A stretch of 64,000 nucleotides of DNA from Raja brachyura. Taxonomy: Eukaryota. The first letter of the stretch is position 1, and every line of letters begins with the position of its first letter. Both the position numbers and the translations under genes were made by a program. The stretch is from contig OY740814.1 of the NCBI GenBank assembly GCA_963514005.1, forward strand, positions 13,392,001 to 13,456,000. The letters run 5' to 3'. This document shows, one piece after another, positions 1,525 to 58,100 of this stretch. The notes beneath the pieces are model-generated. The model was not told where the DNA came from and did not search any database. It saw only the letters and a list, made by a program, of their open reading frames with translations.

Positions 1525-4500
1525 GTAATGGAACAACTTTACTATTTTGCAAGTGTGAAATTATTATTTTTAAGAAATCAGATTTTCCACCATTCTTGGA
1601 TATTGACAATATGCTGGTACACTGCTCAGAGCTCATGGTAAATTCCCAGGAATGGATTTGGTACTAAATTGGTGATTTTAGCAAATCTGGCATGAACCAC
1701 TGCCCTTCTTGTTGCTGTGCTGTGTCGCTGCCTGGGGCTCTTGCTCTTAAGCTTGCTGCCACAGGAAAAATCATCCAGGTTGGGTGCGTGCTGTGCAGCC
1801 AGAGAAAGAGAAGATACAGCTCTGCAAGATGAGCTGATGAGAGAGACCATAAGATCTGGGCCGTCTGTCCACAGGGAGGAGTAGCTGCTGCTGCACCACA
1901 CTCGCTGTGCTGGTCAGTGGTACAGCCTTGCTGTGAGCACATCTCGGCTCGCTGCTGTGCCCGGCTTGCTCAACACCAGCCCTCGCAGGCCATCTCTACT
2001 GATGGCTGGACAAGAATGTAATGTGATAACTGGGTGAGAAAGTAATAATACTTGGTTTAGAGAAGACATAGCAAATCGATATTAAGAAAATTAGCTTAAC
2101 ACTTGCATCATATTGTTTCCTTTGCGTCCTCTGGGAAGGGAAAAGGAACGCTCATGCTCTGGATGTCAGAAATGCTTCTGTGAATTAAATACATTCAAAG
2201 TGTAATTATTGTTACACTTTCAGAAATGTAAGTAAGCAAACGCAGCAGGCTGTTTTAATGCGGTACGGTTTTGATAAACTACTGGGAGGCTGTTTGCTTA
2301 TTTTCGTCTTGTTCACTGTTGCAAACAGAGTACATGCTGTTTAAGTACATCCAACTGTATAAAGTAATGATATGAGATGTCAACAATGATTATATCCTGA
2401 AGTGGGTTGCAAGGTGACAGTCTGATTCTCACCTGACTCTAATACTGATGAATTTTAATGAATAGTTGTTAATGAACAGTTTTTCACTAAGGTGCATTGT
2501 TTTGCAGGAGAAAAAGAAGGTATTGCTATTAGTTGTCAGGAATTACAGAATCTACTTCAGAATGCTAAGGAACTTGAAGTTCGACTGGAAGGCCAAATTA
2601 AAGCATTGGAATCCAGAATTCAAGATCACAGTGCAAGCGAAGAAGAGGCAAGCACAACTAATATTAGATTTCCTGAACACTTAATCAGTGCAGCTAATTT
2701 AAATTGCTTAAAATTAAGTGGTTACTGCAGATGCTAAGTCATTATACAGGTAAACTTTTAAAATTTATATTTGGAAATTCTATCATTCTTGCTGAAAATG
2801 GGAAAATTGGATCATTACATTTGAAAAATTGAAGAACATTGACAGATATGAATTGGATTAATGTTAAATTCAAGAGGAAAAAATTTCTAATTCGGTATTC
2901 TGATCAGTGGTATGTGCTACTTTCAGAATAATTTATTACATTTGCAATTACTGGCTGGCAGTTGCGGTATTGTTCACTTTATCCAGGCAAATAAACATCA
3001 AATTGCATATGGAAAGGCATCCATTTTATTAATTGGACAACTTATTTCCATCTGCTTTAAATTGTTCCTGGGAGTTAATGTTTTCTGTGATTCTGATTAA
3101 AGCTATACTCAACGTGCTTCCAATTGAGATTCAAAGGAACTCCAAATAATCATTCTCAATTTTAATCATGCTTTTTTTGGTTAACTGTGCAGGCACTGAA
3201 GAACCAGAAAATTGCTGAGGCAGCTATGGAAAGCTTGCAGCAGCAACTGTCAGAACTCAGTCGCTCAGAATCTCTTACTCGTGCCAGAGAGCAACACGAG
3301 AATATTATCACCGCATTTAAAGATAAACACGAGGAAACTCTCTTGGCAATGCAGCAGACACTTGATGCAACTAGTAGTTCTTTGGAAGAGCAGGTTAGAA
3401 ATGGTGTATTTTGCTACACTTGAATAGGTCTTCTATCTGCTGCTCATAACATATAATGTTAAAACATGTTATACATTAATGTGCACAATAGAAACTGATT
3501 TTAAAAACTACAATTGAAAGAAATGTTTACTTGTAAATGTCCTGATAGCAGACTTGTATGCAATGTTTGGAAATCCGGTGTTTCTTTAATTTGAGAGATT
3601 TAAAATTTGTAAGTGGCTTGTATATGTTTAATTTTACATGATTCAAAATGATGAATAATCAGTTTTTCTTGCTTGCTTCTCCTACAAGAAAGAAAATGCT
3701 AAACGACTTGGGGAACAAGTTAAACAGTTGCAACGAGAGCAGGAAGAAGCCAAAGTGGAGAAAGCAGAAATAATTAATGGTCTGACAAAAAGTTTAGAGG
3801 CAAGCCAGCAGCAGTGCAGGGATTTACTGCAAACAGGTTGGAGAACATCCTAATTCACTGTTCTGATCAACTGTATGCATTGTTTTGTGACTTTATTTAA
3901 TGAATTTATTGTGAATTTATTTATATTTGCAATTGGATAGTGAAGAACAGATTCACCAGGATGCCTGAAGAAGGCACTTGATCTGAAATGTCCCTTATCC
4001 ATGTTCTCCAGAAATGCTGCCTGACCTAAGTTACACCAGCACTTTGTGTCCTTCGCCAGAATATTTCTTTGTATGAAAGGCTGTAGTTATGTTTAGATAT
4101 TGGATAGGCTGGGTTTATTCTCACAGGAATGTAGGAGACTGAGGGGTGACCTTATACAGATTCAGAGCAGGGGAGTCTAGAACGAAAGGGGACAGGTTAA
4201 GGGGAAAGGAAATAAATTTAAAGGCAGCATGAGGGGCAAGTGCCAGAGGAGATAATGGAGGCAGATACTATTTAAAAGGCGTTTGGATAAGTACTTGGAT
4301 AGGAAAGGAGTAGAGGAATACAGAAGTAATGCAGTCAAATGGGATTTGTGTAAATAAACATCATGGTTAGCATGCATGAGGTGAGCCACTTGGGCCTCTT
4401 TCTGTGCTATGTTTCCACGTTTCTAGGGTATTTGTAGGACCAATCTCTTCTGTGCCAACAAAAATTATATCGCACGTGAAAAGTCATCCATGCCACTTGT

Positions 4501-10500: not shown

Positions 10501-13500
10501 CACGTCTTTCTGGAAAGAAAGGGTGTAGAGGGATACGGCTGTATTGTATGATGATTCTAAGAAATAAAACACTGATCAAATGTGCTTTTTATTCTTGTTT
10601 TTCAAGCTACAAAATTTAATATGCACATTTTAATTCTATTTGGATAGTGTTATTGAGATCACATACCCTATGAAAGTCATTTTTTAATTTACAAATCAGA
10701 AATCAATTCAATATCCTGACGACAAAGTACCAAAGTGGACGTGAGCACATGTATTTAAAACAAGTCTGTGAATGTGTGTACACAATGTACTAAAACTTGA
10801 ACTTGAGTGTAATTTGAAATATTGCTACGCTGATAACAAAAAGGTGGAATTGTATTTTCTTCATCACATGTTCCTACTGACCTAATTTTCCCTTTTACCC
10901 CTTCTAAATTTTTTGATGTATTAGTGCTCAGCTGGAACAGCTGAATCAAGAGATGTCTGGAGTACAAGAGTGTTACATTACTATCTGTAAAGAAAAAGAC
11001 TCACTGGAGAGCCGATTAAGGGAGGAATTGTCCCTCAAATTAACAACAGAACAGGAAGTTAGTGAAAAACAACTCTTTTTGTTTGCTTTATTGGTTCTTT
11101 TATATGTCCATCTTTGGGTGAAAAATCATAAGGTACAGTGCCCTCCATAACAAAGACCCATTTATTTATTTGCCTCTGTACTCCACAATTTGAGATTTGT
11201 AAACTAAAACACCGCATGTGATTAAAGTGCACACTGTCCGATTTTAATAAAGGGAATGTTTATACATTTTGGTTTCACCATGTAGAAATTACAGCAGTGT
11301 TTATACATTGTCCTTCCATTTCAGGGCACCATAATGTTTGGAACACAGCAATGTCATGTAAATAAAAGTAGTCATGTTTAGTATTTTGTTGCATATCCAT
11401 TGCATGCAATGGCTGCTTGAAGTCTGCGATTGATGGACATCACCAGTTGCTAGGTGTCTTCTCTGGTGATGTTCTGCCAGGACTGTATTGCAGCCATCTT
11501 TAGCTTATGCTTGTTTTGGGGGCTAGTCCCCTTCACTTTAGCATATAAAAGGTATGCTCAATTGTGTTTAGATTGGGTGATTGACTTGGCCACTCAAGAA
11601 TTGACACTTTTTTTAGATTTGAAAAACTCCTTTGATGCTTTAGCAGTCGTTTGGGATTATTGTCTTGCTGTAGAATGAACCGCCGGCCAATGAGTTTTGA
11701 GGCATTTGTTTGAACTTGCGCAGATAGGATGTGTCTATACACTTCAGAATTAATTATGCTACTACCATCAGCAGTTGTATCATCAATGACAATAGCCAAT
11801 ACCTTCAGCAGGCATACATGCCCAGACCATAACACCTCCACCACTGCATTTCACAGTTAAGATGTCATGCTTTGGATCTTGGGCCGTTTTCTCCTCGATA
11901 CTTTTCTCTTGCCATCACTCTGATAAGTTAATCTTCTTCTAATCTGTCCACAAGACCTTTTACCAGAACTGTGGTTGTATTAAGTACTTCTTGGCAAATT
12001 ATAAACTGGCCATCGTATTTTTGCAGCTAACCAGTGGATTGTGTCTTGCAGTGTAGCCTCTGTATTTCTGTTCATGAAGTCTTCTGCAGACAGTGGCCAT
12101 TGATAAATCCACACCCGACTCCTGAAGAGTGTTTCTGATCTGTCGGACAGGTGTTTGGGGATTTTTTTAAATTATAGAGATAATTCTTCTGTCATCAGCT
12201 GTGGCAGTCTTCCTTGGCCTGCCAGTCTCTGTGCGATTAGTAAGCTCACCAGTGCTCTCTTTCTTCTTAACAATGTTCCAAACAGTTGATTTGGGTAAGC
12301 CTAAGGTTTGGCTGATGTCTCTAACAGTTTTATTTGTGTTCTCAGTCTCTTAATGGCTTAGTTGACTTTCATTGGCACAACTTTGGTTCTCGTGTTGATA
12401 AACAGCAATAAAAGTTTCCAAAGGTGATGGAAGGACTGGAGGAAAGACTAGGTACTGAGAGCTCTCTTATACCTGCATTAAGAAGGCAATTAAGCACACC
12501 TGAGCCATTAGAAACACCTGTGAAGCGATGTATCTCAAACATTATGGTGCCCTGAAATGGGGGGACTATGTATAAACACTGCTGTAATTTCTACACGGTG
12601 AAACCAAAATGTATAAAAATGGCCTTTAATAAAATCTGCCATTGTGCACTTTAACCATATGTGATTTTTTTCTATTACCAATCTCAAATTGTGGAGTACA
12701 GAGGCAAATAAATCAATGATGGGTCTGTGTCCCAAACATTATTGAGGGCACTGTATGTGTTTATTGACATTTTGGAGACATCATAATATATAATAGACAA
12801 TATATTTGCCATTCCACTTTTTTTCTTTGCACTGTGTAAATCTTATTCTGATTTGGAAGACTGGTTGAATATTAAATGGAAACTTATTCAGGCTTACTAA
12901 ATCCAGCTGTTGAAGAATATTTCAGTAGAGCTTTGAATTGGGTTTTAATGATTTCTAACTGTTTTGTTTGACTATTGACCCTAATGTGATTCTTATGCAG
13001 GTTGGAAGTGGTGTTTATGTTTAATTATGTGGCTATCTTTAATCTTCACTTGCCATTAACAATAGTTAGTTGTGTGAATATATTGCTCAATTTGGCTGCC
13101 TTCCACTTGTAGAGAAAATCTCTCCAAAAAATCATGTGGTAGTAATGGATTTTCAAGAGTGACATATTACTGTAATCACTTACAATACAATCCTATTACC
13201 TCTTAAAATCTGAGTTCAAATTCAACCAAGTTTTGGTTTAAAATATGATCCTGAGTTAAAACCTTTTGGAAGAGATTTCTCAACTCCTTTAAATGGTTTA
13301 TTATCCACTGATGAATGAACCTACTTTGAAAAATTGAAATATCCCACTGGAAATGTTGTCGAGCATATGAGATTCTCCAAAAAAAAAGAGTAGCATGCAG
13401 ACAATTTTCCTGATTTTTGAAATACAATGTCAAGTAATCAAAAATTAGCATAATCTCACTATTAAAATGTATTTCTATGCAATAATAAAAATAATGTACT

Positions 13501-16500
13501 GATAGAATAATGTAGAATTCCTGTGGCCCAGTGCCCCTAACACACAGTTCACCAAGCTCTAAACACTTGGGGAAAATTAGTAAGTTTTTGTCAGAGGCTT
13601 TATTTTTCAGTCTTGACTCTACTACTACTTAGAGAATGAGTATTTGCACTGGTCTTAAATATAAATGCCTTGTTGTTGCAATACCTGAATTGTGAATTTC
13701 AATGTTTCAGTTGAAAAGGACATTTTCAGTACAATTGCAAGAGAATTTGACTGAACTTCATGGAAAGCACAAGGTTGCAATGGAAGCTGCAAAGCAACAG
13801 TGGGTGGCAGAAAAAGAAATCAACATCAAGTTGCAAGTTGAGAGCCAGTTAGAGCTAGCAAAAACACAGTGGCAAGAAGAACAACAAAAAGTAATAACCT
13901 TGGAAATTAATGAATGTTCAAAAATTCTTTGACATGCAGAGGGTATACATTTACTCCTAGCCTAACATGAATCTTTTGTATGCTCAAGATTTTTCTGGTA
14001 TTTCTTAAGGAATTATTTAATTTAAAAAATATATATTTTATTGATTTATATTTTGATAATTGTTTTGTTCTGTATTAGCTGTTTTGTCTTTTTACTGATC
14101 TACATCCTGTCCACAAATAGAAAATACTTAATACTAGATTTTATTTTAACAATAAAACCTGTACATTGTTATTTTAATCGTGATAGTTTTAAATTGGAAG
14201 GATTATGTAAATGTTCCAGCTTCCATTCAGTGTAAAGCTAAAAAAGCCTGGAACCAAAGAAAATATAGGGACATTGCTGCCCCAGGACACCCAACGTGCT
14301 TTGCAGCCAGTTTAGTAGTCCAAAATATAGTTGTTGTAAAGTTGGGTAATTTTGTCACCAGAATGTACACATTATATACATGGTAATATACGCAGCACAG
14401 GGTAATACACACAACATCTACACAATATGGGTAATGTAACAGCATTACGTTGTCTGGGATAATGTTTCTTTCTTTGTTCTTTTGTTTGAGTAATAAATGC
14501 TATGTAGAGAATTGTGGGTAATACAACACCTTTCTCATTAATGCTGTTGCATCTGATAGGGTAGTATTCAGTGGTACTTCTTGCATTTAATGCACTGCAA
14601 ACCATGAGCCCAAAGAATTGATATAATGAGAACTTCTAAGATGAAGATTTCTGGATAAAAACCCATTTTATGATTGTGTAAAACTGAGTGTCGCCTGATG
14701 GAGGCTGCATTATGCACGTGATGCGCCGAATAATTCATTTCCATGCTGTATGACTCTGAGAATGCATCTCTCCTTGTTGGATTAATAACTTCTGTTCAGT
14801 TGCATGTAGTAATATAGCATTTGGGAATAGACAAAGTATTTGCAGCTCTGTGATGCACATGCTTGTGTACATTTATTCTAGATCCATGGAGTTGTGATTG
14901 CTAAACATTTATCAAAGCTACGTCTTAAATAGATCATACGTTTTTCATATAACAAGCATACATAATGTATCCTATCATTATACTCACAATTGAGGATGTT
15001 TTAATTTTGGGTATTGTTCTGTTGTCACTAATGTCTTTTTGATTTTAGATTAAGGAACAAGCAATACAAGAAGTTGAAACAGAATGGCAGCTTCGTCTCC
15101 ACAAGGCTGTAGAGCAAAAGACTTATTTAAAGAGAGAGACAGGAAGTCAAAATAAGGAATCACTTGACGGGGAGAAGGAGGTTTCTACATGTCAAGAATT
15201 GGAAGCTCAAATTGCAAGTCTAAAAATGACAATGGAGCAGCAAGCTAAGGAGGAAAAAATAGTGGCGGTTGGTAAAGCATTACAGCAACTTGAACTAGAA
15301 CTGCAGAAAAAGCATGAAGATAATGTGGCCAGACAGGTAAGATATGAAACATTGTACCAGCATAGAATATGATAATCCATGGTAAGTAATGCTTCAAAAT
15401 TATGACTAATTAAATATAACAAATTGCAGCAGCCTTGGCTGAGATATAAATCATCATAGCCACTGGTGAGTTGTGGGAAGACTGGAGGGTGGCTAATGTA
15501 GTGCCTCTATTTAAGAAGGGCACCAAAGAAAAACCTAGGAACTATAGACCAGTAAGATCAACATCTGTGGTAAGCAAATTACTGGAGAGGATTCTGCAAG
15601 AGATAAATGTTTTTGGGAAGACGTGGGTTGATTAGGGATAGTCAGCATGAGTTTGTGTGTGGAAGATCGTATCTCATTTGATTTTTGAAGAATAACCCAA
15701 AAAGTTGATAAGGGCAGGGCCATAGATGTACTTGGCCTTTTAGCAAGGTCTTTGTTAAAGTTTGCATGATAGGCTGATCTTGAAGGTTACTTCAAGTGGC
15801 TTAATAGTAGGAAACCGAGGGTGGAGATAGAAGGTTGTTTATCGGACTGGAGGCCTGTGACTAGTGGTATGCTGGCCCATTGCTGTTTCTCATCTATATC
15901 AGTCATTTTGGTTGTGCCATAGCTTATCGCAATGTCTTGGGATACATTTATCAGGCCCCAGGACTTTATCTATGTTTCTGTTTTAAGACCTCCAGCACCT
16001 CCTGTAACCTAGACTCTTTTTCAAGACATTGCTATCCCTTTTTTGCCCTCCTAACTGCACTCCTGCATCCTACACCTGACATATGTTTCTTACTTTTCCT
16101 TGACGAGAACCTCAATATCTTTTGACACCTCGTGTTCACTACTGCCAACCTTGCTCTTGACTCTTAACAGGAACATACTGGCCCTGAATTCACTCCTCTC
16201 ATTCTCATTTAAAAGCTTTCTACTTACGAGTTGTTCCTTTACCTGGAAGCCGTCTTCCCCCAATCAACTTTTGATAGTTCCTGTGTAATATCATCAAAAT
16301 TTGCCTTGCCCCAATTTAGGACTTCAACATTGAATGCTGGTCCCAAACGGCTCCCCAACTAACACTCGAGTCGCCTATCCTGCCTTATATCCGCAGAGGA
16401 GGTTAAGTTTTTCCTCGTCTCTAGTGCTATTTTCATATTGATTGTGAAAATCTTCACAAACACTGAACCAATTTCACCCCATTCAACCCCTGAGCACTTT

Positions 16501-19500
16501 GGCAGTCCCAGTTGATATTTAGAAAGTTATAATTTCCCACTATTCCAACCCTATTATTCTTGCAGCTATCTGTGATCTCTCTACAAATTTCCTCCTGTAC
16601 TTTTTTATGACATTGGAGAAGTAAAGTGTAATCCCATCAAAGTGATCGTGCCTTTATTTTTCAGTCCCAGTCATAGCTTCATTGGGCAATCCCCTAAGAA
16701 TATCTTCTCTTACAATTTCTTTTTTTATGAATCATTGATAAAATACATCTCTTGATGCTCCTGAATACGTCATCAGTGATGCAACCTGGGTCATTGGGTT
16801 TCGAGTCTTTCAACATCAGACACCCTCGCCGTGGTTGATCAGACCACAACTTGTGTTCAGGTGGCATTCACTCCTCCCCATGGACCTCCTCTCCTGATCC
16901 AGAACCATCTTGAGGCTTTCTCCGCTGCCTCTGAGGTGTTCTTGATGGCTCGTCTCCTCTCCATTACGCTGATGCCCAGTGCACTCAAGGCTTTGTAGAG
17001 CGATTGCCCTGCAAAACCTCTGCAGCCAACCTCGGTGGGCATACACCTTGCCATCCAGCCTTGCATACGGCAGTCTCTGACCAGCTCTTCATACTTGGTC
17101 ATCTTCCTCTCGTGCGCCTCCTCCAAACGGTCCTCCCACGGCACTGTCAGTTCCAACAAGACGATGTTTTTGGTCACCTCTGAGACCAGGAGGATGTCTG
17201 GCCTTGGGGTGGTCGTTGCAATGTGCCGTGGGAACTTCAGCTGATTCCTGCTTGCTGTGGTTTTTGGCTGCTGCAATCCGGCCTTCACGAAGGCGATCAT
17301 CTGGGTGGCACGGCGTGCTCATCTGCAGCTGCTGATTCCCATGCTGATGGCTTCACTTCCTCCTGGACCAGCCTGCGCCTCTCCTTCCCCTTGGCCTTGT
17401 CAAACTGGGGAGTTGGGAAGGTTTTCTATGAATCAAAATATATTATGAATCATTTTGTTGCATGGAAAATTTTATAAAATAAAATAACACTTATTTACTG
17501 CTTGAAACAATAACAATTGGAGAGGAATAGAAATGGTTAAAAAAATATTTTGTTTTTTAAGGTGGAAATAGCCTTAACAAAAGCTCGTGAACGTTGGTTG
17601 GAAGAATTGACTAACCTGCCTGAATACAGAGCCAATTTACAAATTGAGGAAACAAAATGGGGGAGAAAGCATGAAGAAGATGTAGAAATGCAGGTCGGGT
17701 GTTTCAGCCACATCTTTTTGCATAGTTTGACAGAGTCTGGCTACAAATGATTAATATTCAATTTAAGAAGCCTAAAAAAGATGGAGCTGAAACTTTTTTG
17801 AGAGCTTATTTTATTCAGTGATGTTCAGTTTTACTACAATATTTATAAAAAAATATTTTTCGATCTTTATACCCTACTCGTGTAAGAATTTCCCCCCCTA
17901 TGGTAAACAAGTATTGCATATAACATGAAATGTAAACTAGTATAGTTACTAATCTAGCATATAATATCAAATGTGAAACATTAGCGCAGAAATGACAGAG
18001 AATGGCACTTCATTATCCACTTATAATTGGATATTTCCAATTTGGTTTTGTCTGAATCAATTCCCTGTAGATTGTCCAGAATATTTTTAAAACCTGCAAT
18101 GTGAATTATTATTCATTTGTATGATTACAGTGCCCTCCATAATGTTTGGGACAAAGACCATGGACATTTATTTATTTGCCTCTGCACTCCACAATTTGAG
18201 ATTTGTCATTTTAAAAAAATCACATGTGGTTAAAATGCAATTTGTTAGAATTTCCAGCTGTGTTTATACATAGTTCCCCCCATTTTCAGGGCACCATAAT
18301 GTTTGGGACACATTGCTTCATCTCCACCCATCTGCTAAGTAACCCCCCAAGGTGTTTGCAATTGCTCGGGTGTGTTTCATTGCCTCATTAATGCAGGTAT
18401 AAGAGAGCTCTCAGCACCTTGTCTTTCCGCCAGTCTTTCCATAACCCTTGGAAACTTTTATTGCTGTTTATCAACATGGGGACCAAAGTTGTGCCAATGA
18501 AAGTCAAAGAAGCCATTATGAGACTGGGAAACATGATTAAAACTGTTAGAGACATCAGCCAATCCTTAGGCTTACCAAAATCAACTGTTTGGAACACCAT
18601 TAAGAAGAAAGAGAGCACTGGTGAGCTTACTAATCGCAAATGAACTGGCAGGCCAAGAAATACCTCCACAGGTGATGACAGAAGAACACCTGTCCGACAG
18701 ATCAGAAACACTCTTCAGGTGTGGATTTGTCAATGACCACTGTCTGCAGATGACTTCATGAACAGAAATACAGAGGCTACACTGCCAGATGCAAAAATAG
18801 GATGGCTGTTTTACAGTTTGCCAAGAAGTACTTAAAAGAGCAACCACAGTTCTGGGAAAAGGTCTTGTGGACAGATGAAATGAAGATTAACTTGTCTCAG
18901 AGTGATGGCAAGAGCAAAGTATGGAGGAGAGAAGGAACTGCCCAAGATCGAAAGCATACCACCTCATCTGTGAAACACGGTAGTGGTGGTGTTATGGCCT
19001 GGGCATGTATGGTTGCTGAAGGTACTGGCTCGCTTATCTTCATTGATGATACAATTGCTGATGGTAGTAGCATAATGAATTCTGAAGTGTATAGACACAT
19101 CCTATCTTCTCAAGTTCAACCAAATGCCTCAAAAATCATTAGCCGGCGGTTCATTCTACAGCAAGACAATGGTCCCAAACATACTGCTAAAGCAACAAAG
19201 GAGTTTTTCAAAACTAAAAAATTGTAAATTCTTGAGTGTGGCCAATTCAATCACCCGATCTGAACCCAATTGAGCATGCCTTGTATATGCTGAAGAGAAA
19301 ATTGAAGGGAACTAGCCTCCAAAACAAGCATACGCTAAAGATGGCTGCAATACAGGCATGGCAGAGCATCACCAGAGAAGACACCCAGCATGGGGATGTC
19401 CATGAATCGCAGACTTCAAGCAGTCATTGCATGAAAAGGATATGCAACAAAATATTAAACATGACTACTTTCATTTAAATGACATTCCCGTGTCCCAAAC

Positions 19501-22500
19501 ATTGACATTAAATGACATTCCCGTGCCCTGAAATGGGGGGACTATGTGTAAACACTGCTGTAATTTCTACACGGTGAAACCAAAATGACAATGTGCACTT
19601 TAACCACATGTGAATTTTTTTCTATTATAAATGTCAAATTGTGTAGTACAGAGGCAAATAAATAAATGATGGGTTCTGTCCCAAACATTATGGAGGGCAC
19701 TGTACGTAATTTTTATCTTGAAGTTAATCCTGTTCAGAAGCTGTGAACATGTTTTTTGAATGCAGCACATGTAACTTTTCCTTCGAAATTTAGTGCAGTA
19801 GAATGGAATTTCACAGGCAGTGTAAATTGTGCTGTTGCCACTTTACTGCCCTAAACACATTACCTTATTGTCTTCCAACTAATATAAGTAAACGCGCTAT
19901 AAGGTGAATTGGGGATGAAGTTATAGATTTAAGTTCTTACATTTTTCCAAATACAGTGCAATGGTAATTTGAAGATCTTGCCAACATAGAATAGCACATT
20001 CATTCCTTCAGGAAGAAGTCTTTTTATTGTACTAGATACACATTCAGCTTATGAAATAAAAAACTGAATAAATTCCTAGATTTGTACTCTGGCAGACTAT
20101 ATGTAGTAGTGTTCTGCAGGGCTCAGTTCTAGATCCCTTTTTGCAGAATGTAGGAATGATCTGGATGTTAATGACTAGATTTTAGTTACGTTTACGGTTG
20201 AGCACTGTGGGAATTGCAAGCTGTCTGTCATTGGTTTAATTTGGTGGCATAGATATATTTGAGGAAGGCAAACAAGGTAAAGAAATGCATGTAACTGAGA
20301 AGTTCTGAAATGTGTAGAGCAATTCAGGAATCTTAGAGTGTGCCCACTTACCCTTGATGATAAACACATAGTGCTGGCATAACTCAGCAAATGAGGCAGC
20401 ATCTGAGGAAGGAATGGATAGGCAGTGTTTCAGGTTGGGACCATTCTTCAGTCTTGTAGAGTGGAGATAGCTTTAAATGAGGCGGAAGTGAGACAAAGTC
20501 TGGCAATGGATAGGTGGGGGGGTTACTTAGCAGATGGGTGGAGATGAAAGGAGATAAAAGGGTAATGGGCAAAGTATGCCTACTTTGAAGATGTTCACTT
20601 CTCTCCTGGAGCCCTGAGAGACTCTTGCTGCCCCTCTGATTTCTGCTAATCTCCTGCACTTCGACCATGTTTTGACCTGGACTCGCTACTACAGCCATGT
20701 GTCTTTCCTCTAATCTGCCAATCAAACCCCACTTACCTGTATTATGGTCAGTAACTAGTGGTGATAGATTTAAATGACGGTGCAAGAGAGGGCAGAAAGA
20801 TTCTCTCTCCCCCCCACCCCCCAACTCTCGTCCCTCTGCCTCACCTGGAATTGCACATTGCATCCATTTCTTCCCTTTCCCGCTATATTCTTTCCTCTGG
20901 CTTCACAATTCACACGCCTATCCCTATCTCAAACTTTGTCCTTTGTCCAACCATCTGCCTATCAACCTCCACCCGCCTCACCTATATCCATGTACCACTT
21001 GCCAGGCTTTGTCCTGTTTGCACCTCTCTTCCACTTTCTGCCTCTAACACTACAATCAGTCTGAAGAAGAGTCCTGACCCAAAACATCACCTATCCATGT
21101 TCTCCAGAGATGCTGCCTGACCTGCTGAGTTACAGCAGCACTTTGTCTTTTTCATTGGAGTAAAGAAGTGTTGTTTTATCATTAAGATGGATTTGTTAAT
21201 TTGATCGTTACTTGTTATTTACAGATAGCAACAGTGCTGAGAGAAAATGAAGAAAAATGGAAGAAATATGCTTTGAAAGAAAGTGAGAAAGCTGGATCTA
21301 GTGTTAAAACTGTAGAATTACAGGAAAAAATCCACATCCTGGAACGTAATTTAGAACTTCAGAAAGAAGAAGCATCGGCAGTTGCTAAAGCGGAATTGGC
21401 AAAAGTTCAAACTCAGTGGAATAAGGAAAAACAAGAAGAGATCAACAGAATTCATGAATTAAATGAGAATGATTATCGAGCCTTCTTAGATGAGCATAGA
21501 CAAAAACTCAATGAGGTTCTTAAAGCAGCTAAAGAGGACTTTACAAGGCAGAGAAATGAGCTACTAGCACAAAAGGATGCAGAATTAAATCTACGTATCT
21601 TGGAGAAACAAAAAGAATGGTCAGCTCACCAAAAAGAACAGATTAGGTGTGAAAAACAGCAATACGAGTCTGAGCTTATTGCTGAAATTGAGCATTATTT
21701 GAGGCAAATCTCAAAACATATCAAGAAATCTGAGACTCCATATTTGAGAATAGAGAAATGTTGTAACTCCATCAACCCCATACATGCGCAGGGTGATAAG
21801 GTGAAAAACCAGCTCCAGGAAGTTTGTACAAAACTGGTTGAAGAGATCCTAGAGATTGTACAGAACGAGGTAATGGAAAGGAGCTATGTTGATAATTTGG
21901 AAAAATATGCTACCCTACATGGATTCTAAACTCATCATTGGTAGTTGCATTAGTTGTACACATCAATTGTTTTTCCTGCAAAGAACGCTCCTGCACTTAC
22001 GCACTCTTATGGTTTAGTAATGCTTGTGTCTACTGATTTCACTTCTATTCTCCCTTCACATTTAGAAAATCACATTGACCTTTACTGTGTTGATAATATT
22101 GTGATTAGCATATTTGAGACTTTACTTATGTGAGGCATCATGCCAATTTGTCTCATTTACATATGTGCTTTCAGATAGCAAAAAAGAATTTATGTACATT
22201 AATACTTCTAATAATGTCTCAATCAATATTTTGAGTGATTTGATTTATACATTGAACATTTTCTTTTAACAGGAGAATAAATTGGATCTGCAAAATGCAT
22301 TAAGACAAACAGAAAAGCAACATGAAGAATATAAAACTGAAAAGGAGGCACAGCTCAGGAAACTTGAGCTATCTGAACTTCAGCTCAAACAAGAATTAAA
22401 TCATTTGCAGCAAACGTTGAATATCATGCAGCAAAAGGAACTCAAACGTGGTATTTCAGTTATTCTTTCTAAATTCAAAAATTGAATGTGGTTAATATTT

Positions 22501-28500: not shown

Positions 28501-31500
28501 GGAAGCTAGGAAAGAAATTGCAGGGTCCCTGGCAAAGATATTTGTATCATCAATAGCCATGGGTGAGGTACTGGAGGATATCTAATATTGTGCTTCTGTA
28601 TAAGAAAGGCTGCAAGGAAATGCCTAGAAACTACAAACCAGTGAACCTATGTCAGTGGATGTTATTGAAAGGTATTCTGAGCAACAGTATCAACATGAAA
28701 TTGGAAAGGCACAGGACTGATTAGGGATGGTCAGCATGGCTTTGTGTGTGGCTAAATTGTGCCTTGAAAATTTGACTGAGTATCTTAAAGAGATGACCAA
28801 AAACTGTAGATGTTGGAACCTTGAGTGTAAAATAAAGTGATGTGTTGTAGGCTACCCAAACAGAATGAGGTTCTATACCAGCTACAACCTAACAACATAC
28901 ACATACAACATTCTCCAATTTCAAATAGTACCTTCCTAGTAGTACAGGGGTCGGCAACCTTGTTCTGCATAGGGGCTGGGATGCATGTCTGTGAGGTGAT
29001 GGCGGGCCACATCTATCATGTGTACACATGGATCCCACCCCGGATGGCAGGCATCAAATCACGTGTTCACAGAAGGTAGACAAAAATGCTGGAGAAACTC
29101 AACGGGTAAGGCAGCCTCATGCAGTCCTTGCATGTCTCACCCGCTGAGTTTCTCCAGCATTTTTGTCTACCTTCGATTTTTCCAACATCTGCACTTCGAT
29201 TTTTCCAACATCTGCAGCTCTATCTTAAACGTGTTAACAGAAGGTGCGAGGCCATGCCAGCGGCTTTGCGCAGGATGTGGTACAGCCAGAGCTCGGCTGC
29301 TGCTCGGGGCGCCCAGCCGCTGCTCGGGGAAGTGATGGGAAAGCCATGTATGGGGTATTGTGTACAGTCCTGATCTCTCTTCTGCGGGAAGAATGTCATT
29401 AAACTGGAAAGAGTGCACAGAGGATTTCCAAGGATGGTACCAGGACTGGAGATTAAGTGTTATAAAGGAAGACTAAGTAAGCTAGGATTTTTTTAATTGA
29501 AGCATAGGAGACTGAGCAGTGATCTTACAGACGTTTATAAAATGATGAGGGGAATAGGTGAGCCGCTGTCTTTTTCCCCAGGACAAGAGTATCTTAAACT
29601 AGAAGGCATAGGTTTATGGTGAGAGGAGAAACATTGTAAAAAGAATATGAGGGTATCATTTTCACACATGGGTTAGCTTTATTATTATCACATGTACTGA
29701 GGTACAGTGAAAAGCTTTGTCTTGCATGCTTTCTAAACAGTTCACATATACCATACAGAGCCATATTCAGTTCACACTCGAGTACAATACATAAAGCAAA
29801 CTTTTTTCACGCAGGGTAGGGTGTATATAGATGAGCTGCATGAGGAGTTGGTAGAAGTGGACATAATTATGACACTTGGACAGTGCATGGATAGGATAGG
29901 TTTGGAAGGATTTGGGCCAGGTTTACCAGGTTGGACTAACCTGGTTTAGCAACTTGGCCAGCGTGGATGAGTTGAGCCAAAAGTCCTGTTTTCATCTGTA
30001 TAAATTATTGACTCTATCTTTGCCTTTGTCATTCAACTTGTTCTAGAATAGAATGATAATGCACTTTCCAACCATTGGTAATCAAATATGTATCTTTTAA
30101 ATGGGTACAATCATTAAATATGTTCACTTGAAATTTAATGTTGCTTTTAAAATATTGATTTGAAATGTTGCAGTAGATATCTTTACATTTTATATTTATC
30201 AATTGGACAGATGATTGTGTAAGCAGGAACAATGCAACAAATTCCAAACAACATATATTCAAATTGTATTTTGTTAGACCTGATTGCATTTCAGAGTATT
30301 GACATTTTTGTGATCATTGTACTTTTGAAGGAGTGATCACAGTTCCTGCATATCAAGTCAGGTCATGTTTATTGCTAGTTGCACACATACAGTGAGGTAC
30401 AGACACAATGACAATCTTGCTAGCAGCAGCATTGCGAACACAGACTCTGACAGGCACGGAAATCGCTATCAAAATATGGAGGGGACAGGGGGGACTGAAT
30501 TTCTTGGCGGGCGCGCGTGCGCGGCTTCGGAGGCTCAATCCAGCACTAAATGCAGCTCAACTCTGCCTGTCTCACCGGGTTAACCTACAGCCCTGCCTGG
30601 ACTGACGGGACACCAGCGCTGCTTCTCCGCGCTGGCTGTAAACCTGGGAGTATTTCCCGCAAACCCAGGCAGGGCTGTCGGTTCACCTGGTGGGGCAGGC
30701 AGAGTTGAGCTGGGTTTAGCGCTTCTTCTCAGCGCTGGCTGTGGGCCTGGGGGTACAGCTCCCGTCTGACTCCCGACCTCTCTAGCCACCCATTGGGGGG
30801 TGGGGACGGGACAGTGCAGGAGAGCCGGGATCGATCCTGGCTGCGGATGAGGCGCAGGTCTGTGCCGAGAGTGTTTTGGCACGTCTCCCTCCTCCAATCA
30901 CCGCACTCTATCTTCAGTCCCACCCCCACTCCTCCCTCCTCCAATGATCACGCTAAATCGTCATGTCCTGCCCCCATTGCCTGCTGACCGACGTCTCTCT
31001 CGTCCAATCGGGGCGCCCTCGATCAGCAGTTCCACCCCAACTGTCTCGCGGAAAGCGGAGATTTCGCCGGGTTTTAATTTCCGGATTACAAAAGCTTTGC
31101 GGGGGATCGTCCCCAACCTCTCAAAACAGAGGGGGGACGTGTCCCCCCTGCCCCCACCCCCCGGGATTTCCGCCCCTGGACTCTGACAACATACAAAAAC
31201 ATAAACTATACATAATACTCAAATTCTGCAAATCAGTAAAGGTAAAGTTGCAAAACAACAATCATGCAAATCAATAGAAAAACAAGTAAATTAAATAATT
31301 TTCCAAATACCTTTAAAAATTTATTTTGTTTTTTCCTAATGTTTTATGGTGAATTTGAAGTTATTTGAAGGTTGACAATTTTTGATGAGCTTTAACAAAT
31401 AAACTGCTTTCATTTTTCAATATATATCAATATTTAATTATTTCAATGTTTACCTGCATTGACAGCACTTGCCTATCTGGTCAAGAAAGCAGAGTTCAAC

Positions 31501-37752: not shown

Positions 37753-37958
37753 GATAGACGCCAAATGCTGGAGTAACTCAGCGGGACAGACAGACAGACA
37801 GCACCTCTGAAGAGAAGGAATGGGTGACGTTTCGGGTCGAGACCCTTCTTCAGACTGGGGAGACTTCAAATCTGAGGAAACGCCGCCCATTCCTTCTCTC
37901 CAGGGACGCTGCTGCTGCTGCCTGTCCCGCTGAGTTACTCCAGCATTTGGCGTCTATC
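37753..37958. mobile_element. Penelope-derived palindrome at the INTS14 promoter
   Basis: 37-bp perfect inverted arms at 37753-37789 and 37922-37958, plus inner imperfect arms. Confidence 0.85.
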
Positions 37959-38884: not shown

Positions 38885-41800
38885 GTGGGACAAGAACAAT
38901 TTCAGAAAAATAAATTGTGGATCTACCGTGTCCAATGATAAAAATGCATTTAATAAAAATACGAAGTTAAATATAAATAAAATGCCACATTACTTGGGAG
39001 GACCACCACCCCTATCTTTGGGCTGGATTGCTGGTGTGAAATAATCATCTCATCAGTGGGTAGGGGATATTAAACCACAGAGCACATTAGTCATGTCAAG
39101 CCAAACATAGCACAGCACAGGAACCATTCCTTCAGCCCACGATGTCTGTACTGACCTAGACCATCAATATAAACTACACATTACAAATGTGTCCTAAACA
39201 AACTTTTATACAGTTGCAATGCAACTTCCTGACTTTATTACTCAATGCATGACTGCTGGTTACTGTATACATTGCTCTTTGACCTAAAAAGCAACACCTC
39301 AACTTGTCTGGATTAAACTCCATCTGCCATTTCTCTGCCCATATTTTCAAGTGATCAGTATCCTGCTGTACCCATTATAAGGATGTAAACATTGTAATTG
39401 AACATTCTCACTGTCCACAACTCTGAAATTGTCACGTGAGTTGATTTGCAGCTTTCCAAATCAACTCACCAATGTTTTCATCCAAACCATTTATATATGT
39501 ATCACAAACAATAGTGTATGGTTGTATATCTGCTCTATGATAGTTTATTTGTGTTCAACCAGGATTGACTCCCCTCAGTTACTGTCCTTTAGCCAGAATT
39601 GGGAAGTGTATTCATGCACTTTTGGGCATGAAACAATGTGGTAAAATGCAGTGCTCCTGGACCAGAACGGTCTAAGGACTCTGGATTTCATGGCTTACAT
39701 CCCTTGAGAAAGAGACTGTTCATTTACTGGAAATACCTGCAGTTGTCCATAGAGATCTAACAGTCAGATTGGGTATATCTGCATAACGTTATTTTCCTTT
39801 CACATTTATAATACTGGCAAGGATTATTATAAACAGAATATGCAGGTATTTGACTTTCTAGTCAGAAATCCAGGTGCTAGCTGCAACCCTGAAAATTCTC
39901 ATTGTTTTATCAACTTCATGGTCTTGCCCATTGTAATCTGCTCCAGCCTGTAATCCTTTACAATCTCACTGTTATACTTCCACTAGCTTGAATATTCTTA
40001 ATTTGAATTGCTGCAACCCACAGCATTTTTGTTCACATGCCCATATAGTTCAGTGTCTTTAATACCTGAAATCTTCGGTTTGATGCTTGCCCTTTCTAAC
40101 CACACTGATCGCTTACAGGAGTCATTGAGCACCGTGGATGACTATGACAAGACCTGCCTCGAGTCTGCTCTTACGGGGGTCAGCAACATTGTGCAGGATG
40201 AGTGGGGTGTCTGCATTCCCTGTCAGGTAACTGGACTTCCACTTTGTTTTACAGTAATGGTTTGACCACGCACCTGTTGAAATGTTTGGGAGTAATTCTG
40301 AAATGCGGCACGGTGGCGCAGTGAGAAACTTGCTGCCTTACAGCGCCAAAGACCCGGGTTCAATCCTGACTGGGCGCTGTCTCTACGAAGTTTGTACGTT
40401 CTCCCCGTGCCCTGCAAGGGTTTTCTCTGGGAACTCTGGTTTCCTCCCACACTCTAAAAACATTCAGGTTTGTAGGTTAAGTGGCTTGGTATAATTGTAA
40501 ATTGTCCCTAGTGTGTGCAGGATAGTGTTACTGTGCTGGGATTGCTGGTCGGCATGGACGCTGGGCCAAAGGGCCTGTTTGCCCAATGTATCTCAAACAA
40601 ATTTTTGATATTGAGTTTTCCTGCTGTTGATAAATTTAGGGATTTGATTAGGGCCTCTTGCTTTCAGGTTAAGGTGTGAAGAAAATGGACAAATAAATGG
40701 GCAGATGCATATAGTTCATCTTTTGAATGTGATGTGTTTGTAGACAGTGGTGGTTTGCTTCTGGAAGTTTGTATTGACCATCAGTGCTTATTCTGAGGTT
40801 GTGAGCTTGGGGTCTCGGGTATGGGGTCAAATAAAACAACTGCACACTAGGTTGTATTTCCATTAATGTATTGCCTTTGCGTTGACTTCAAAATATGGTG
40901 AGCAAGTTACGTTAGTTCCTTTCTTATGGCCTGAAATATGAGCGTGTGATTAATAATCTCTGTGACCTTCATTGACCCATTGCTCCCAGTGATTAAACCC
41001 ACCACAAATTCTGTAGTTCTTTGCAATAGTGGGAGGGCACTGGCACTGATGGCTGTACCATCATTCATTGAAGCATGGAAATCAAACTGTCCCAACCCTT
41101 TCATTCAAGCATGTTCTGGAAGAAATCAACTGTTGAACTGTTCCGGTCTCCGGTGTTCCACACTGATTCTGAGGCTGCTGGGTGTCAGTTAGCAGTCATT
41201 TTGTTTACCGCAATCATGCAGAAATCTTCAAGAATGTGACGTTGTAATGAGGTATCTTGCCCTGTAATAAAAACTGAAATTTACAATTTGCTGTTTCTAC
41301 CCTCTCTCCTACTGCAACATTTACTAATGAAATGGCTTTACTGTCTGATTGGAAGTTTGTTTTATTTTCCACAGGTGATCATTGTAACAGACGGGAGCCT
41401 GGGAATAGGTCGAGGATCCCTGCGCCACTCGCTGTCCATCCTCAACCAGCACTCCGAGGACAGCAAGTTCCCACTTCCCTTCCCATTTCCATCAAAGCTG
41501 TACATTATGTGCATCGCTAACCTAGAAGAGGTACGGCATACTGAGGGGAAATTGGACACTTTCATAGAAGAAGCACAAGGGAGAGAATGTATGTGAGACT
41601 AGCTTGGGGGTGGTTCTTTCATGTGAATATTTTTCCTTCACATTCATTTTGTTTTTCCAGCTTCAGAGCACAGACACCCTGGATGTTCTGGAATGTCTGA
41701 TAGATTTAAACAATGGTGAGGGGCAGATCTTCACTATCGATGGTCCTCTTTGCCTGAAAAATGTGCAGTCTATGTTTGGGTACGTGATTGTGTGAATCTG

Positions 41801-55154: not shown

Positions 55155-58100
55155 CTGGAAAACAAGGGAAATTTATCAAATACACCACAGATATTAGATA
55201 AACAAGGTGTTACAAGGGTAGCTGTTCTAATATACTCATGAAACCATAGAACTCAATGAAATGTAATCAAAAAAATTAAATGCAAAACCACCCATTGTAC
55301 GCTCTATATAACAATGGCCAGACTTCTAAAAGTCTTTCAGTGGGTGTAAAGAGCTTAGAACCTTCATGTAGTGGTAAAGGATATTATACAAATATATCCT
55401 TTATCCTCGTATATCCTTGTACGAGACCGATGCTGCTTTCTTTTACATGACCAGAGCCTTAATATCTCGTCATCATGTGTTCGATACTGCTGCCAATCTT
55501 GTCCTTCATTGGAACATGCTGGCCCTGAATTCTCTATCTGACTTTTAAAAGCATACCACTTACCATTACCTGCAAATAACCTACCCCAATCAACTTTTGA
55601 AAGCTCCTGTCTAAACATTGGCCTTGTCCCAATGCACAATTTTACTTATGGACTACTACTATCATTTTCCATTATCATCGATATTTGCAAAGTTAAAGTC
55701 CTGTACTATTGGAACCATATACCTGTGATCTCCCCCCATATTTGCTCCTATTACTCCCACTCAAGAGTGGACAACACTTGACCTTCAATTAGGAAATGAG
55801 GCAGGGGAAGTGACTGAAGTGTCAGTGGGGAAACACCTTTGGACCAGTGGCATAAAACTATTAATTATAAAATCATATTAGAACAAGATAAGAATGGTCC
55901 AGGGATGAAAGTTGTGAATTGGGGCAAGGCTAATTTTGAATGCATTAGACAGGAATTTGCAAAGGTTTATTGGGCGAGGTTATTTGTGGGTAAAGGGACA
56001 TCAGGCAAGTGAAATGCTTTTACAAGTGAAATAGGGAGAATTATTCTAGAGGAGCATATTCCTGTTAGAGTGAAGGACAAGGCTGGTAGCATTAGGGAAC
56101 ATTGGTTGACAAGGTATTGAATTACTGATCAGGAAAAAGGAGGCATATAAGCAGCTGAGATCAAGCAAATTCTTTGAGTATAAACAATGTAGCAGTACAC
56201 TTAAGAAGGGAACCAGGAAGGCAAAAAGCCTTGGAAGATAAGTTAAAGGAGAATGCTAAGCGATTCTCTATGTACATTAGGAGCAAACGCTCAACAAGGG
56301 AGAGAATAGATTCTCTTATAAAGATCAATGTGGTCATCGATATATGGAGCTGCGGGAGATGGGTGTGGATCTTAAATTAATACTTCTCAACTATATTTAC
56401 CATGGAGAATATCATGACAGCTAAGGAACTTTACAAAGAAAACTGTGGGGTCCTTAAACATATTGGAAAAGGATTTTGGCCAAAGTGGTGAAATACTTTT
56501 GATATTTCATAATTATCGGTACACCAATGGTGGCACGCAGCACACTTGACTTTATCAATCAGGCCATTGAGTACAAGAGTTTGGGCATCATGCTACAACT
56601 TTATAAGCGTAGCGAGAGTGCATGTGGAGTATTGTGTATAGTTATGCTCACCTAGATGTAGGAAGGATGTCATTGAGCCAAAAAGGGTGCAGAAAAGATT
56701 CACAAGGATGTTACTGGGACTGGAGGGCTTGAGTTATGAGGAGAGACTGAATGAGCTGGGACATTTTTCCCTGGAGCATAGCATATAATATCGTGAAGTG
56801 CATAGATGAGGTGAATGGTCACAATCCTTGTCCCAGGGCACGGAGTCAAAAAGTAGAGGGTATAGATTAAAGATGATTGGACAAAAATTTACAGGGAACC
56901 TAAAGGACAACATTTTCTGAGAATGGTGGGTATGTGGAGCAAGCTACCAAAGGAAGTTGTAGAGACAGGTACAATTACAACATTTAAAAGGCATTTAGAC
57001 AGGTACATGCAATGTAAATGTTGAGAGAAATATGGGCCAAACACAGGCAAATGGAATTAGCTCAGGTAGGCATCTTGGCTGGCAAGAACGATTTAGGCCA
57101 AATGGCCTGTTTCTGTGCTGTATAACTCTTTGCTTCAATTATCTGATTGAGTCTTCATTAAATTCTCTATAACATGAATAACACTGTGGCCAACATCAGC
57201 TTTTTAACCATTCCCTATTACACAGGAACTTAGCATATTAATCTCTAAATTAATCTTACAGACTTTTTATCGGCTGTAAGTGGAAGAGAAAAGGGTAAAG
57301 AGACATTGGACATAGTCTCCTTGTCTCATGCACAGACTCCATTTACTGTTAAGTTCTGAACTCATTTATCATTCAGATTAATGTATTGACTATTTGACAA
57401 CCTGAAATATATTAAATAAATAAGGGAATACAATCAGAGATTAGAACTTACCCAAGAACATGATAATAAGATAAACTTGTAGAAAATAGGTAAAACTGAA
57501 TGAGATGTTGAGTGGGTTGGGCAGCTGGACAGTAAATCTTCCACTTTCCTCAAAGTGCGGAATAGACTGAACCACACAGACCGCTGTGGGAGACAGGTGG
57601 GGAAATGCAAGTGAGTCTTCAAACACTAACAAATATGTGAATATAGGAAAGAGAACATCGCTACAAATTCACAAAGTGCACAGGCAGATCTATTTCATAG
57701 CTCAATCAATAGTTTAACAGTAATGTAAAAACATACAACAATTTAACAACCAACCTTCTGCAATGACTCCCAGTGGATAAAGAGGTATCCAGATGGTGTA
57801 TCGGATCCATGTCAGAATTTTCCATTCTGTTCCTATACATGATAGCATGTAGTAAGGGTACCTGTTTCAATAAAATAATGATTTATACACATTAGACTTT
57901 AGAGATACAGCGCAGCAACAGGCCCTTTGGCCCACTGAGTCCGCGCCATCCAACGATCACCCCGTATACTAACCTACACACACCAAGGACAATTTTACAA
58001 CTTACTGAAGCCAATTGATCTATAAACCTGTATGTCTTTAGAGTGTGGGAAACTGGAGCCCCTGGTCAAGATTGAACCTGGGTCTCTGGCGCTGTAGCGC

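What the first reader, a model, noticed from the sequence alone, without database searches (positions are those of the whole stretch)
11136..19702. Inverted Tc1 pair brackets a 600-nt, phase-0, stop-free three-exon cassette of CEP152 (candidate circRNA with an endless ORF)
Seen: two about 1.6-kb copies of the same Tc1 family lie in opposite orientation (11136-12753 minus, 18128-19702 plus). One hand-aligned stretch had about 9 mismatches in about 107 nt. Between them are exactly three exons (180+288+132 = 600 nt), all phase 0. Back-splicing 17693 to 13711 gives CAG-TTG with no stop, hence a 200-codon circular frame with an in-frame GCAATGG start at 13780. Established: reverse-complementary intronic repeats promote back-splicing, exon skipping and ADAR editing. 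Inference: the pre-mRNA can fold a >1-kb duplex, giving a circCEP152 able to support rolling-circle translation of a coiled-coil polymer and/or an in-frame 200-aa-shorter CEP152. The outermost TIRs could also define an 8.6-kb composite transposon carrying host exons.
Basis: partly seen in the sequence, partly recalled or inferred. Interest (0 to 1): 0.7.

Follow-up and report, generated by a model that had tools for sequence, protein, structure and literature searches.

The report
Old transposon pair around CEP152 exons
Two long-dead copies of a very common jumping gene face each other across three exons of a skate's centrosome gene, a layout known to favour circular RNA that likely arose by chance here; no circle or shortened protein of the proposed kind was seen.

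Summary
The anatomy is real. Two Tc1 copies lie head-to-head in introns 16 and 19 of skate CEP152, around phase-0 exons 17-19 (600 nt, stop-free if circularised), and are predicted to form a strong RNA duplex. None of it is special. The family has at least 5,153 copies, so about 27-49 inverted pairs this close are expected genome-wide. Both copies are dead, as decayed as random copies (5-6% from consensus), and show no co-evolution. An endless circular frame follows automatically from equal-phase ends: 112 of 325 exon blocks of this gene give one. The phase-0 boundaries likely predate the insertions, since other vertebrates' isoforms drop single exons at the same borders. Spliced RNA contigs show the linear 17-18-19 path and skipping of exons 19 and/or 20, not the predicted back-splice or 16-to-20 skip. 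Contigs lose rare forms, so a minor circle stays open. The enclosed DNA tested is single-copy and one outer transposon end is damaged, so it is not a composite transposon. This is a new instance of repeat-flanked exons like Drosophila laccase2. The scan noted the same layout in other genomes before.

The parts
10925..11057 (+). CEP152 exon 16 (133 nt; phase 2 start, phase 0 end)
   Evidence: tblastn of P0001 and splice-site fit
11134..12755 (-). Tc1 copy A with both TA dinucleotides, in intron 16; dead transposase (longest stop-free stretch 105 aa); about 210-225-bp terminal inverted repeats with inner and outer direct repeats; the outer (genomic left) terminus has lost the core of its outer direct repeat; 6.5% from family consensus
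   Evidence: Pfam HTH_Tnp_Tc3_2 E 4.8e-10 on 12002-12166
13711..13890 (+). CEP152 exon 17 (180 nt, phase 0-0); predicted back-splice acceptor; in-frame ATG at 13780
   Evidence: RNA contigs
15049..15336 (+). CEP152 exon 18 (288 nt, phase 0-0)
17562..17693 (+). CEP152 exon 19 (132 nt, phase 0-0); predicted back-splice donor; skipped in RNA contigs of runs X8 and X9 and absent from protein P0002
18126..19705 (+). Tc1 copy B with both TA dinucleotides, in intron 19; dead transposase (longest stop-free stretch 157 aa, several 7-30-nt deletions); 5.4% from family consensus
   Evidence: 18754-19224 matches Sleeping Beauty transposase 5cr4_A, E 4.3e-24
21225..21869 (+). CEP152 exon 20 (645 nt, also phase 0-0, outside the Tc1 bracket); skipped in RNA contigs of X17 (19-to-21) and X8/X9 (18-to-21)
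22273..22450 (+). CEP152 exon 21, acceptor of the observed skip products

Best explanation
Two dead copies of an abundant Tc1 family sit in opposite orientation in introns 16 and 19 of skate CEP152, likely as independent old insertions that met by chance around exons whose phase-0 borders likely predate them; they are predicted to pair in the pre-mRNA and would then give at most a minor by-product circular RNA. Shown: the copies, their decay, the exon phases, the family size, the lack of shared substitutions, and the linear and exon-19/20-skipped splice products. Inferred: independent insertion; ancestral phase-0 borders (from protein alignments, not from other species' DNA); co-transcriptional pairing if intron 16 is still unspliced when copy B is transcribed; low-level back-splicing of exon 19 to exon 17 and A-to-I editing in the duplex. 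The endless reading frame is a side effect of equal-phase exon ends, not a selected feature.
For: Family size: 3,522 exact 28-nt terminal matches and 5,153 matches to an internal 30-mer at up to 2 mismatches, reversed-pattern control 0; 3 near-full-length copies in 749.8 kb sampled. Poisson expectation is 27-49 inverted same-family pairs with a gap of 5.4 kb or less for 5,153-7,000 copies. Inverted matches of any family 1-10 kb apart: 12 at 500 bits or more (9 of 15 blocks) and 2 at 1000 bits or more (1 block) in that sample. A and B are 6.5% and 5.4% from consensus, like the 3 randomly sampled copies (5.6-6.5%); they share 2 derived substitutions (median 3; rank 69 of 91 pairs), and each is closer to most unlinked copies than to the other. 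13 of 26 introns are phase 0; 112 of 325 internal exon blocks, and 10 of 23 three-exon blocks, give an endless frame. Among 120 homologues, exon 17 alone is missing in 74, exon 18 alone in 1 and exon 19 alone in 1, at the same borders in the rows inspected; 0 of 120 lack all three while keeping exons 16 and 20. RNA contigs show 17-18-19 joined in X17, X18 and X1, 19-to-21 in X17 (depth 4.9 against 14.4 for 19-to-20), and 18-to-20 and 18-to-21 in X8 and X9. Literature: many circles are judged by-products of splicing near transposons (PMC8516420, abstract and passages).
Against: The duplex is long and strong: 1,367 predicted pairs, -2191 kcal/mol; the interior alone gives -1713, far more than each copy's own terminal hairpin (-272, -214); 8 helices of 30 bp or more. 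It has no rival among the gene's introns. The inner ends lie only 956 and 433 nt from the back-splice sites. Pairs of only 69-75% identity drive one of the most abundant fly circles (PMC4617980, passages). The RNA data are assembled contigs of unknown library type, which drop rare forms and probably under-represent non-polyadenylated circles, so an abundant circle in total RNA has not been excluded. The two strongest random inverted pairs both came from one block, so the genome-wide rate of pairs this strong is poorly known.
Confidence: 0.75

Rival explanations
1. The Tc1 duplex efficiently drives an abundant, lineage-specific circCEP152 (exons 17-19), as inverted DNA transposons do at Drosophila laccase2, and so diverts pre-mRNA from linear CEP152; the circle is non-coding or not usefully translated.
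For: Strong unrivalled duplex close to both splice sites; precedent with weaker repeats (PMC4617980, passages) and in maize (10.1101/100578, abstract). DNA contigs of run X19 (organism E) run from unique intron sequence 25 letters into each Tc1 end, hinting that both insertions are shared with a close relative (below the tool's 31-letter bridging rule).
Against: No sign that pairing is preserved: divergence is ordinary and shared changes are not in excess. The non-standard joints seen in RNA contigs involve exons 19 and 20 in the forward direction.
Confidence: 0.17
2. The duplex loops out exons 17-19 and acts as a switch for an in-frame CEP152 shorter by 200 aa (exon 16 joined to exon 20) that keeps the PLK4-binding and CEP63-binding ends.
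For: The junction would be in frame. The Pfam PLK4-binding (1-60) and CEP63-binding (1401-1451) regions lie outside the block, which is residues 814-1013 of P0001. This part of the protein tolerates exon loss.
Against: In the 4 runs laid on exon 20, every contig with loose letters before it carries exon 19 or exon 18 letters (X17 1, X9 2, X8 2, X2 1), although a minor skip at depth 4.9 was kept in X17. 0 of 120 homologues show the three-exon deletion.
Confidence: 0.04
3. The circle is made and translated by rolling-circle translation into a functional coiled-coil concatemer.
For: The frame is open with four in-frame ATGs, and the circle is 60% A+U. Rolling-circle translation of endogenous circles is reported (10.1101/473207, passages).
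Against: It needs three unshown steps: an abundant circle, cap-independent initiation and a stable product. Such frames are common: about 50% of candidate translated human circles, with 2 of 3 tested products degraded by the proteasome, and 112 of 325 blocks here. Overexpression signals often come from linear by-products (10.1101/2021.03.23.433163, abstract).
Confidence: 0.03
4. The outermost terminal repeats define an 8.6-kb composite transposon that carries or has moved host exons.
For: Head-to-head geometry with TA at both outer ends. Inverted 'sandwich' pairs can move cargo in Tc1-type systems (recalled; two paper searches found nothing relevant).
Against: 13600-15400 has 1 match in the genome, itself. 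All 25 matches of the CEP152 protein lie in this one locus (stricter first look). The exons are in native order with homologues across jawed vertebrates. Each copy has its own two TA-flanked ends. A's outer end has lost the core of its outer direct repeat, and 0 of 14 copies examined keep an open transposase frame (longest 275 aa).
Confidence: 0.01

Closest known systems
Drosophila laccase2 and PlexA circular RNAs flanked by inverted DNAREP1_DM transposons (Kramer et al. 2015, PMC4617980; passages read)
   Same: Inverted copies of one DNA-transposon family in the introns on both sides of coding exons; imperfect complementarity; in laccase2 the repeats are not conserved in most related species.
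   Different: There the circle is shown, abundant and dependent on pairing; here no circle is shown. The Tc1 duplex is longer and more complementary (about 1.4 kb paired, 90% by substitutions), lies further from the exons and encloses three exons.
Reverse-complementary transposon dimers around mammalian circRNAs (Gruhl et al. 2021, PMC8516420; abstract and passages) and maize LLERCPs (10.1101/100578; abstract)
   Same: Lineage-specific transposon pairs as the pairing scaffold; the by-product reading of Gruhl et al. fits the lack of maintained pairing here.
   Different: Here the scaffold is a near-full-length Tc1 DNA transposon pair in a cartilaginous fish, not Alu, SINE or LINE. One search (circular RNA + skate + chondrichthyan) found no paper.
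Rolling-circle ORFs (rcORFs) of endogenous circRNAs (Fan et al., 10.1101/473207; passages)
   Same: Stop-free frame across the back-splice joint that overlaps the host protein.
   Different: No peptide, ribosome or circle evidence here; rcORFs are common and some products were rapidly degraded.
IR/DR Tc1 elements such as Sleeping Beauty
   Same: About 1.6 kb, TA target, about 210-225-bp terminal repeats with inner and outer direct repeats, transposase like 5cr4_A; 34 residues between the second D and the E, counted by eye.
   Different: Both copies are old and inactive; the exact family name was not determined.

Membership tests
Tc1 (IR/DR) DNA transposon | TA target dinucleotide at both ends and terminal inverted repeats | tested here: met
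Tc1 (IR/DR) DNA transposon | HTH plus DD34E transposase | tested here: met
   Pfam PF01498 E 4.8e-10; Sleeping Beauty catalytic domain E 4.3e-24; spacing of 34 counted by eye; frames broken. The catalytic piece had no significant Pfam match.
Tc1 (IR/DR) DNA transposon | Active transposase (autonomous copy) | tested here: not met
   longest stop-free stretches 105 and 157 aa
Repeat-driven exonic circRNA locus | Reverse-complementary sequences in the flanking introns | tested here: met
Repeat-driven exonic circRNA locus | Back-splice junction in RNA | tested here: inconclusive
   none laid in 3 spliced contig sets; contigs show presence, not absence, and library types are not on record
Repeat-driven exonic circRNA locus | RNase R resistance and dependence on pairing | not testable with these tools
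   needs bench work
Repeat-driven exonic circRNA locus | A-to-I editing in the paired repeats | not tested
Rolling-circle translated circRNA | Stop-free circular frame with a start codon | tested here: met
   shared with 110 of 325 blocks of the gene
Rolling-circle translated circRNA | Ribosome footprints or a junction peptide | not testable with these tools
   no such data available
Composite (sandwich) transposon | Intact outer ends and evidence that the unit moved | tested here: not met
   outer end of A damaged; tested cargo single-copy and in native gene order

The most novel reading that the evidence does not exclude
A pair of Tc1 fossils gave skates a stable circular CEP152 RNA whose 200-codon endless frame is translated round and round into a coiled-coil polymer that acts at the centriole.
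Probability: 0.03. Interest if true: 0.75.

Novelty: new member of a known kind. Interest (0 to 1): 0.17.

Why it matters
If the circle were abundant and depended on the pair, it would be a clean natural test of Tc1-driven back-splicing in a cartilaginous fish, in a gene that controls centriole duplication. A translated concatemer would be a rare endogenous rolling-circle product. On present evidence it is one of tens of such same-family pairs expected in this genome. The better-supported biology at the locus is ordinary in-frame alternative splicing of exons 19-20, which changes the length of the CEP152 coiled coil.

Tried and rejected
RNA search: no RNA holder listed, that is none of the 20 rows is on record as RNA; all are assembled contigs and no raw reads were offered. 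I treated X17, X18, X1, X9, X8 and X2 as RNA-derived only because they carry GT..AG exon joints; 7 of the 20 runs were laid. Back-splice look: no backward joint among the 15 joints shown (47 not shown). Depth bookkeeping left no room for an extra contig at the start of exon 17 in X17, X18 or X1 (residual within 3 depth-letters). The one excess, 584 at the end of exon 19 in X17, matches the 19-to-20 and 19-to-21 contigs (30 x 19.3 = 579). Contigs drop rare forms, so this does not show absence. The 16-to-20 skip was likewise not seen in 4 runs. Editing was not assessed. A comparison with a species lacking one copy was not possible: the only relative's DNA laid (X19) appears to carry both. Pfam on five single exons gave nothing above its curated cut-offs. 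Paper searches with nothing relevant: CEP152 + circRNA, Tc1 + circular RNA + flanking introns, DNA transposon + fish circRNA (0 papers), skate circRNA, sandwich/Paris; these were judged from listings only. No supplements were read; circRNA catalogues in supplements may list CEP152 circles of other species. Rejected: 'the copies are too diverged to pair' and 'gene conversion or compensatory change keeps the pair matched'. One of 16 planned sample blocks (C27) did not exist and was dropped, and one of the 15 used is the stretch next to the window. My first exon-18 coordinates were off by one and were corrected.
Full report
Setting. The exon at 21225-21869 is CEP152; its best relative is the little skate protein P0001 at 97% identity, so the window comes from a skate (G000, contig C36, 2.7 Gb). 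With 10 kb of upstream DNA, P0001 maps to 27 exons that give 1,879 residues with no internal stop. All 25 genome matches of the protein lie in this locus (run with a stricter first look).

Observation. Copy A (11136-12753, minus) lies in intron 16 and copy B (18128-19702, plus) in intron 19, each with TA on both sides and its own terminal inverted repeats of about 210-225 bp. Transposase remnants match Pfam HTH_Tnp_Tc3_2 and the Sleeping Beauty catalytic domain; both frames are broken. Exons 17, 18 and 19 (180, 288, 132 nt) lie between them, all phase 0-0, and the 600-nt circle is stop-free in the native frame with four in-frame ATGs. The copies are 78.4% identical with gaps and 89.9% by substitutions, with a longest exact run of 39 nt.

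Is the pair special? Within the gene, yes: 1494 bits against 98 for the next inter-intron inverted match. In the genome, no. There are 3,522 exact terminal 28-mers and 5,153 internal 30-mers at up to 2 mismatches. Random placement of 5,153-7,000 copies predicts 27-49 inverted pairs with a gap of 5.4 kb or less. In 15 blocks of 50 kb (14 at a fixed arbitrary offset, 1 next to the window) there were 3 near-full-length copies of this family. Inverted matches of any family 1-10 kb apart numbered 12 at 500 bits or more, in 9 blocks, and 2 at 1000 bits or more, both in one block. The last rate is therefore rough.

Is the pair maintained? In an alignment of 14 copies, A and B are 6.5% and 5.4% from the consensus, like the three randomly sampled copies (5.6-6.5%); the nine others were picked as best hits of B and are mostly closer. 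A and B share 2 derived substitutions, against a median of 3 over 91 pairs. This fits two independent old insertions with no conversion or compensatory change. DNA contigs of a close relative (run X19) run 25 letters into each Tc1 end from unique intron sequence, a hint, under the tool's 31-letter rule, that both insertions are shared.

Is the endless frame special? No. A block of coding exons whose two ends have the same phase closes in the native frame, and with phase 0 the joint cannot create a stop. Here 13 of 26 introns are phase 0; 112 of 325 internal blocks and 10 of 23 three-exon blocks give an endless frame, 110 with an ATG. The phase-0 run covers exons 17-20, one exon beyond the bracket. 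Among 120 homologous proteins, 74 lack exon 17 alone, 1 lacks exon 18 alone (a sawshark isoform) and 1 lacks exon 19 alone (another skate); none lacks all three while keeping exons 16 and 20. In the 16 rows inspected by eye the gaps fall at these exon borders. These are database gene models, and I did not check their DNA, so the ancestral borders are inferred.

Can the copies pair? Prediction says yes: 1,367 pairs and -2191 kcal/mol, against -556 to -578 for 3 shuffles of B; the interior alone gives -1713, and each copy's own terminal hairpin -272 or -214. The inner ends lie 956 and 433 nt from the back-splice sites. In Drosophila laccase2, inverted DNA transposons of 69-75% identity are necessary for an abundant circle (PMC4617980, passages). 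So divergence is no argument against a circle, and some back-splicing and editing are likely if intron 16 survives until copy B is transcribed. This step is inferred.

What RNA shows. Only assembled contigs were offered, none on record as RNA; six of the seven runs laid carry GT..AG exon joints. X17 (which holds all sampled words of the query and may be the window's own source), X18 and X1 each have one contig joining exons 17, 18 and 19 and continuing 896-2,636 letters upstream. On exons 20-21 the loose ends identify the upstream partners. In X17 they are 19-to-20 (depth 14.4) and 19-to-21 (4.9). In X9 and X8 they are 19-to-20, 18-to-20 and 18-to-21 at similar depths (9-19). In X2 it is 19-to-20. 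The alternative splicing that exists in skates thus removes exon 19, exon 20 or both, in frame, and does not follow the Tc1 bracket. Neither predicted joint was laid, but contigs lose rare forms and the library types are unknown, so a minor or non-polyadenylated circle remains open.

Composite transposon. The 1.8 kb holding exons 17-18 has a single genome match. The exons are in native order, each copy has its own TA-flanked ends, A's outer end has lost the core of its outer direct repeat, and none of 14 copies has an open transposase frame. TA at the outer ends proves nothing, since every Tc1 insertion has it. The 'sandwich' precedent is recalled and was not found in two searches.

Comparison with what is known. 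The layout is a new instance of exons flanked by reverse-complementary transposons: laccase2 and PlexA, maize LINE pairs (10.1101/100578, abstract) and mammalian transposon dimers, whose circles are largely judged by-products (PMC8516420, abstract and passages). Rolling-circle frames are common among candidate translated circles, and 2 of 3 tested products were degraded by the proteasome (10.1101/473207, passages); overexpression assays are prone to linear artefacts (10.1101/2021.03.23.433163, abstract). Searches for a CEP152 circle, a Tc1-driven circle or skate circles gave nothing relevant in the listings. Earlier AI notes list four similar layouts in other genomes, none with a circle shown; nothing was noted near this place.

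Verdict. Real anatomy, known kind, probably chance. Neutral pair with at most a by-product circle 0.75; abundant repeat-driven circle 0.17; 200-aa skip switch 0.04; functional rolling-circle polymer 0.03; composite transposon 0.01. Interest 0.17.

Noticed in passing
window 17562-22450 (exons 19-21): In-frame alternative splicing of CEP152 in skates: exon 20 (215 aa) skipped in X17; exon 19, or exons 19+20, skipped in X8 and X9 at depths near the included form. It would shorten the central coiled coil by 44-259 aa. A mouse Cep152 exon is reported to be under hnRNPM control in testis (PMC11708004, passages); whether it corresponds was not checked.
   Followed up: partly
window 18317-18348 and 20517-20548: A perfect 32-nt inverted repeat within intron 19. 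The left arm covers a 28-nt insertion in Tc1 copy B relative to copy A and matches sequence 2.2 kb downstream, likely a templated insertion from DNA repair. Not checked against the other copies.
   Followed up: partly
window 2647-2648: The best-fitting donor of intron 7 is GC rather than GT; not confirmed with RNA.
   Followed up: no
window 21859-22292: Low-depth contigs inside intron 20 in X17 (depth 3.7 and 2) and X9 (2.9): retained intron, pre-mRNA or DNA carry-over.
   Followed up: no
window 15420-17470: Intron 18 holds several high-copy repeat fragments (depth in the thousands in DNA run X19); not classified.
   Followed up: no
window 41240-41596: An exon-like frame of a second gene downstream of CEP152; it resembles Integrator subunit 14 from recall, but Pfam gave no significant match.
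   Followed up: partly
window 61576-62537, 55434-56145, 37753-37958, 30542-30723, 29072-29174: Other inverted repeat pairs and imperfect palindromes in the same window.
   Followed up: no
G000:C18:20006284-20017121 and 20030778-20039367 (within L048-L051): Two inverted pairs as strong as the Tc1 pair (3.5 kb at 70%; 1.2 kb at 91%) in one randomly chosen block.
   Followed up: no
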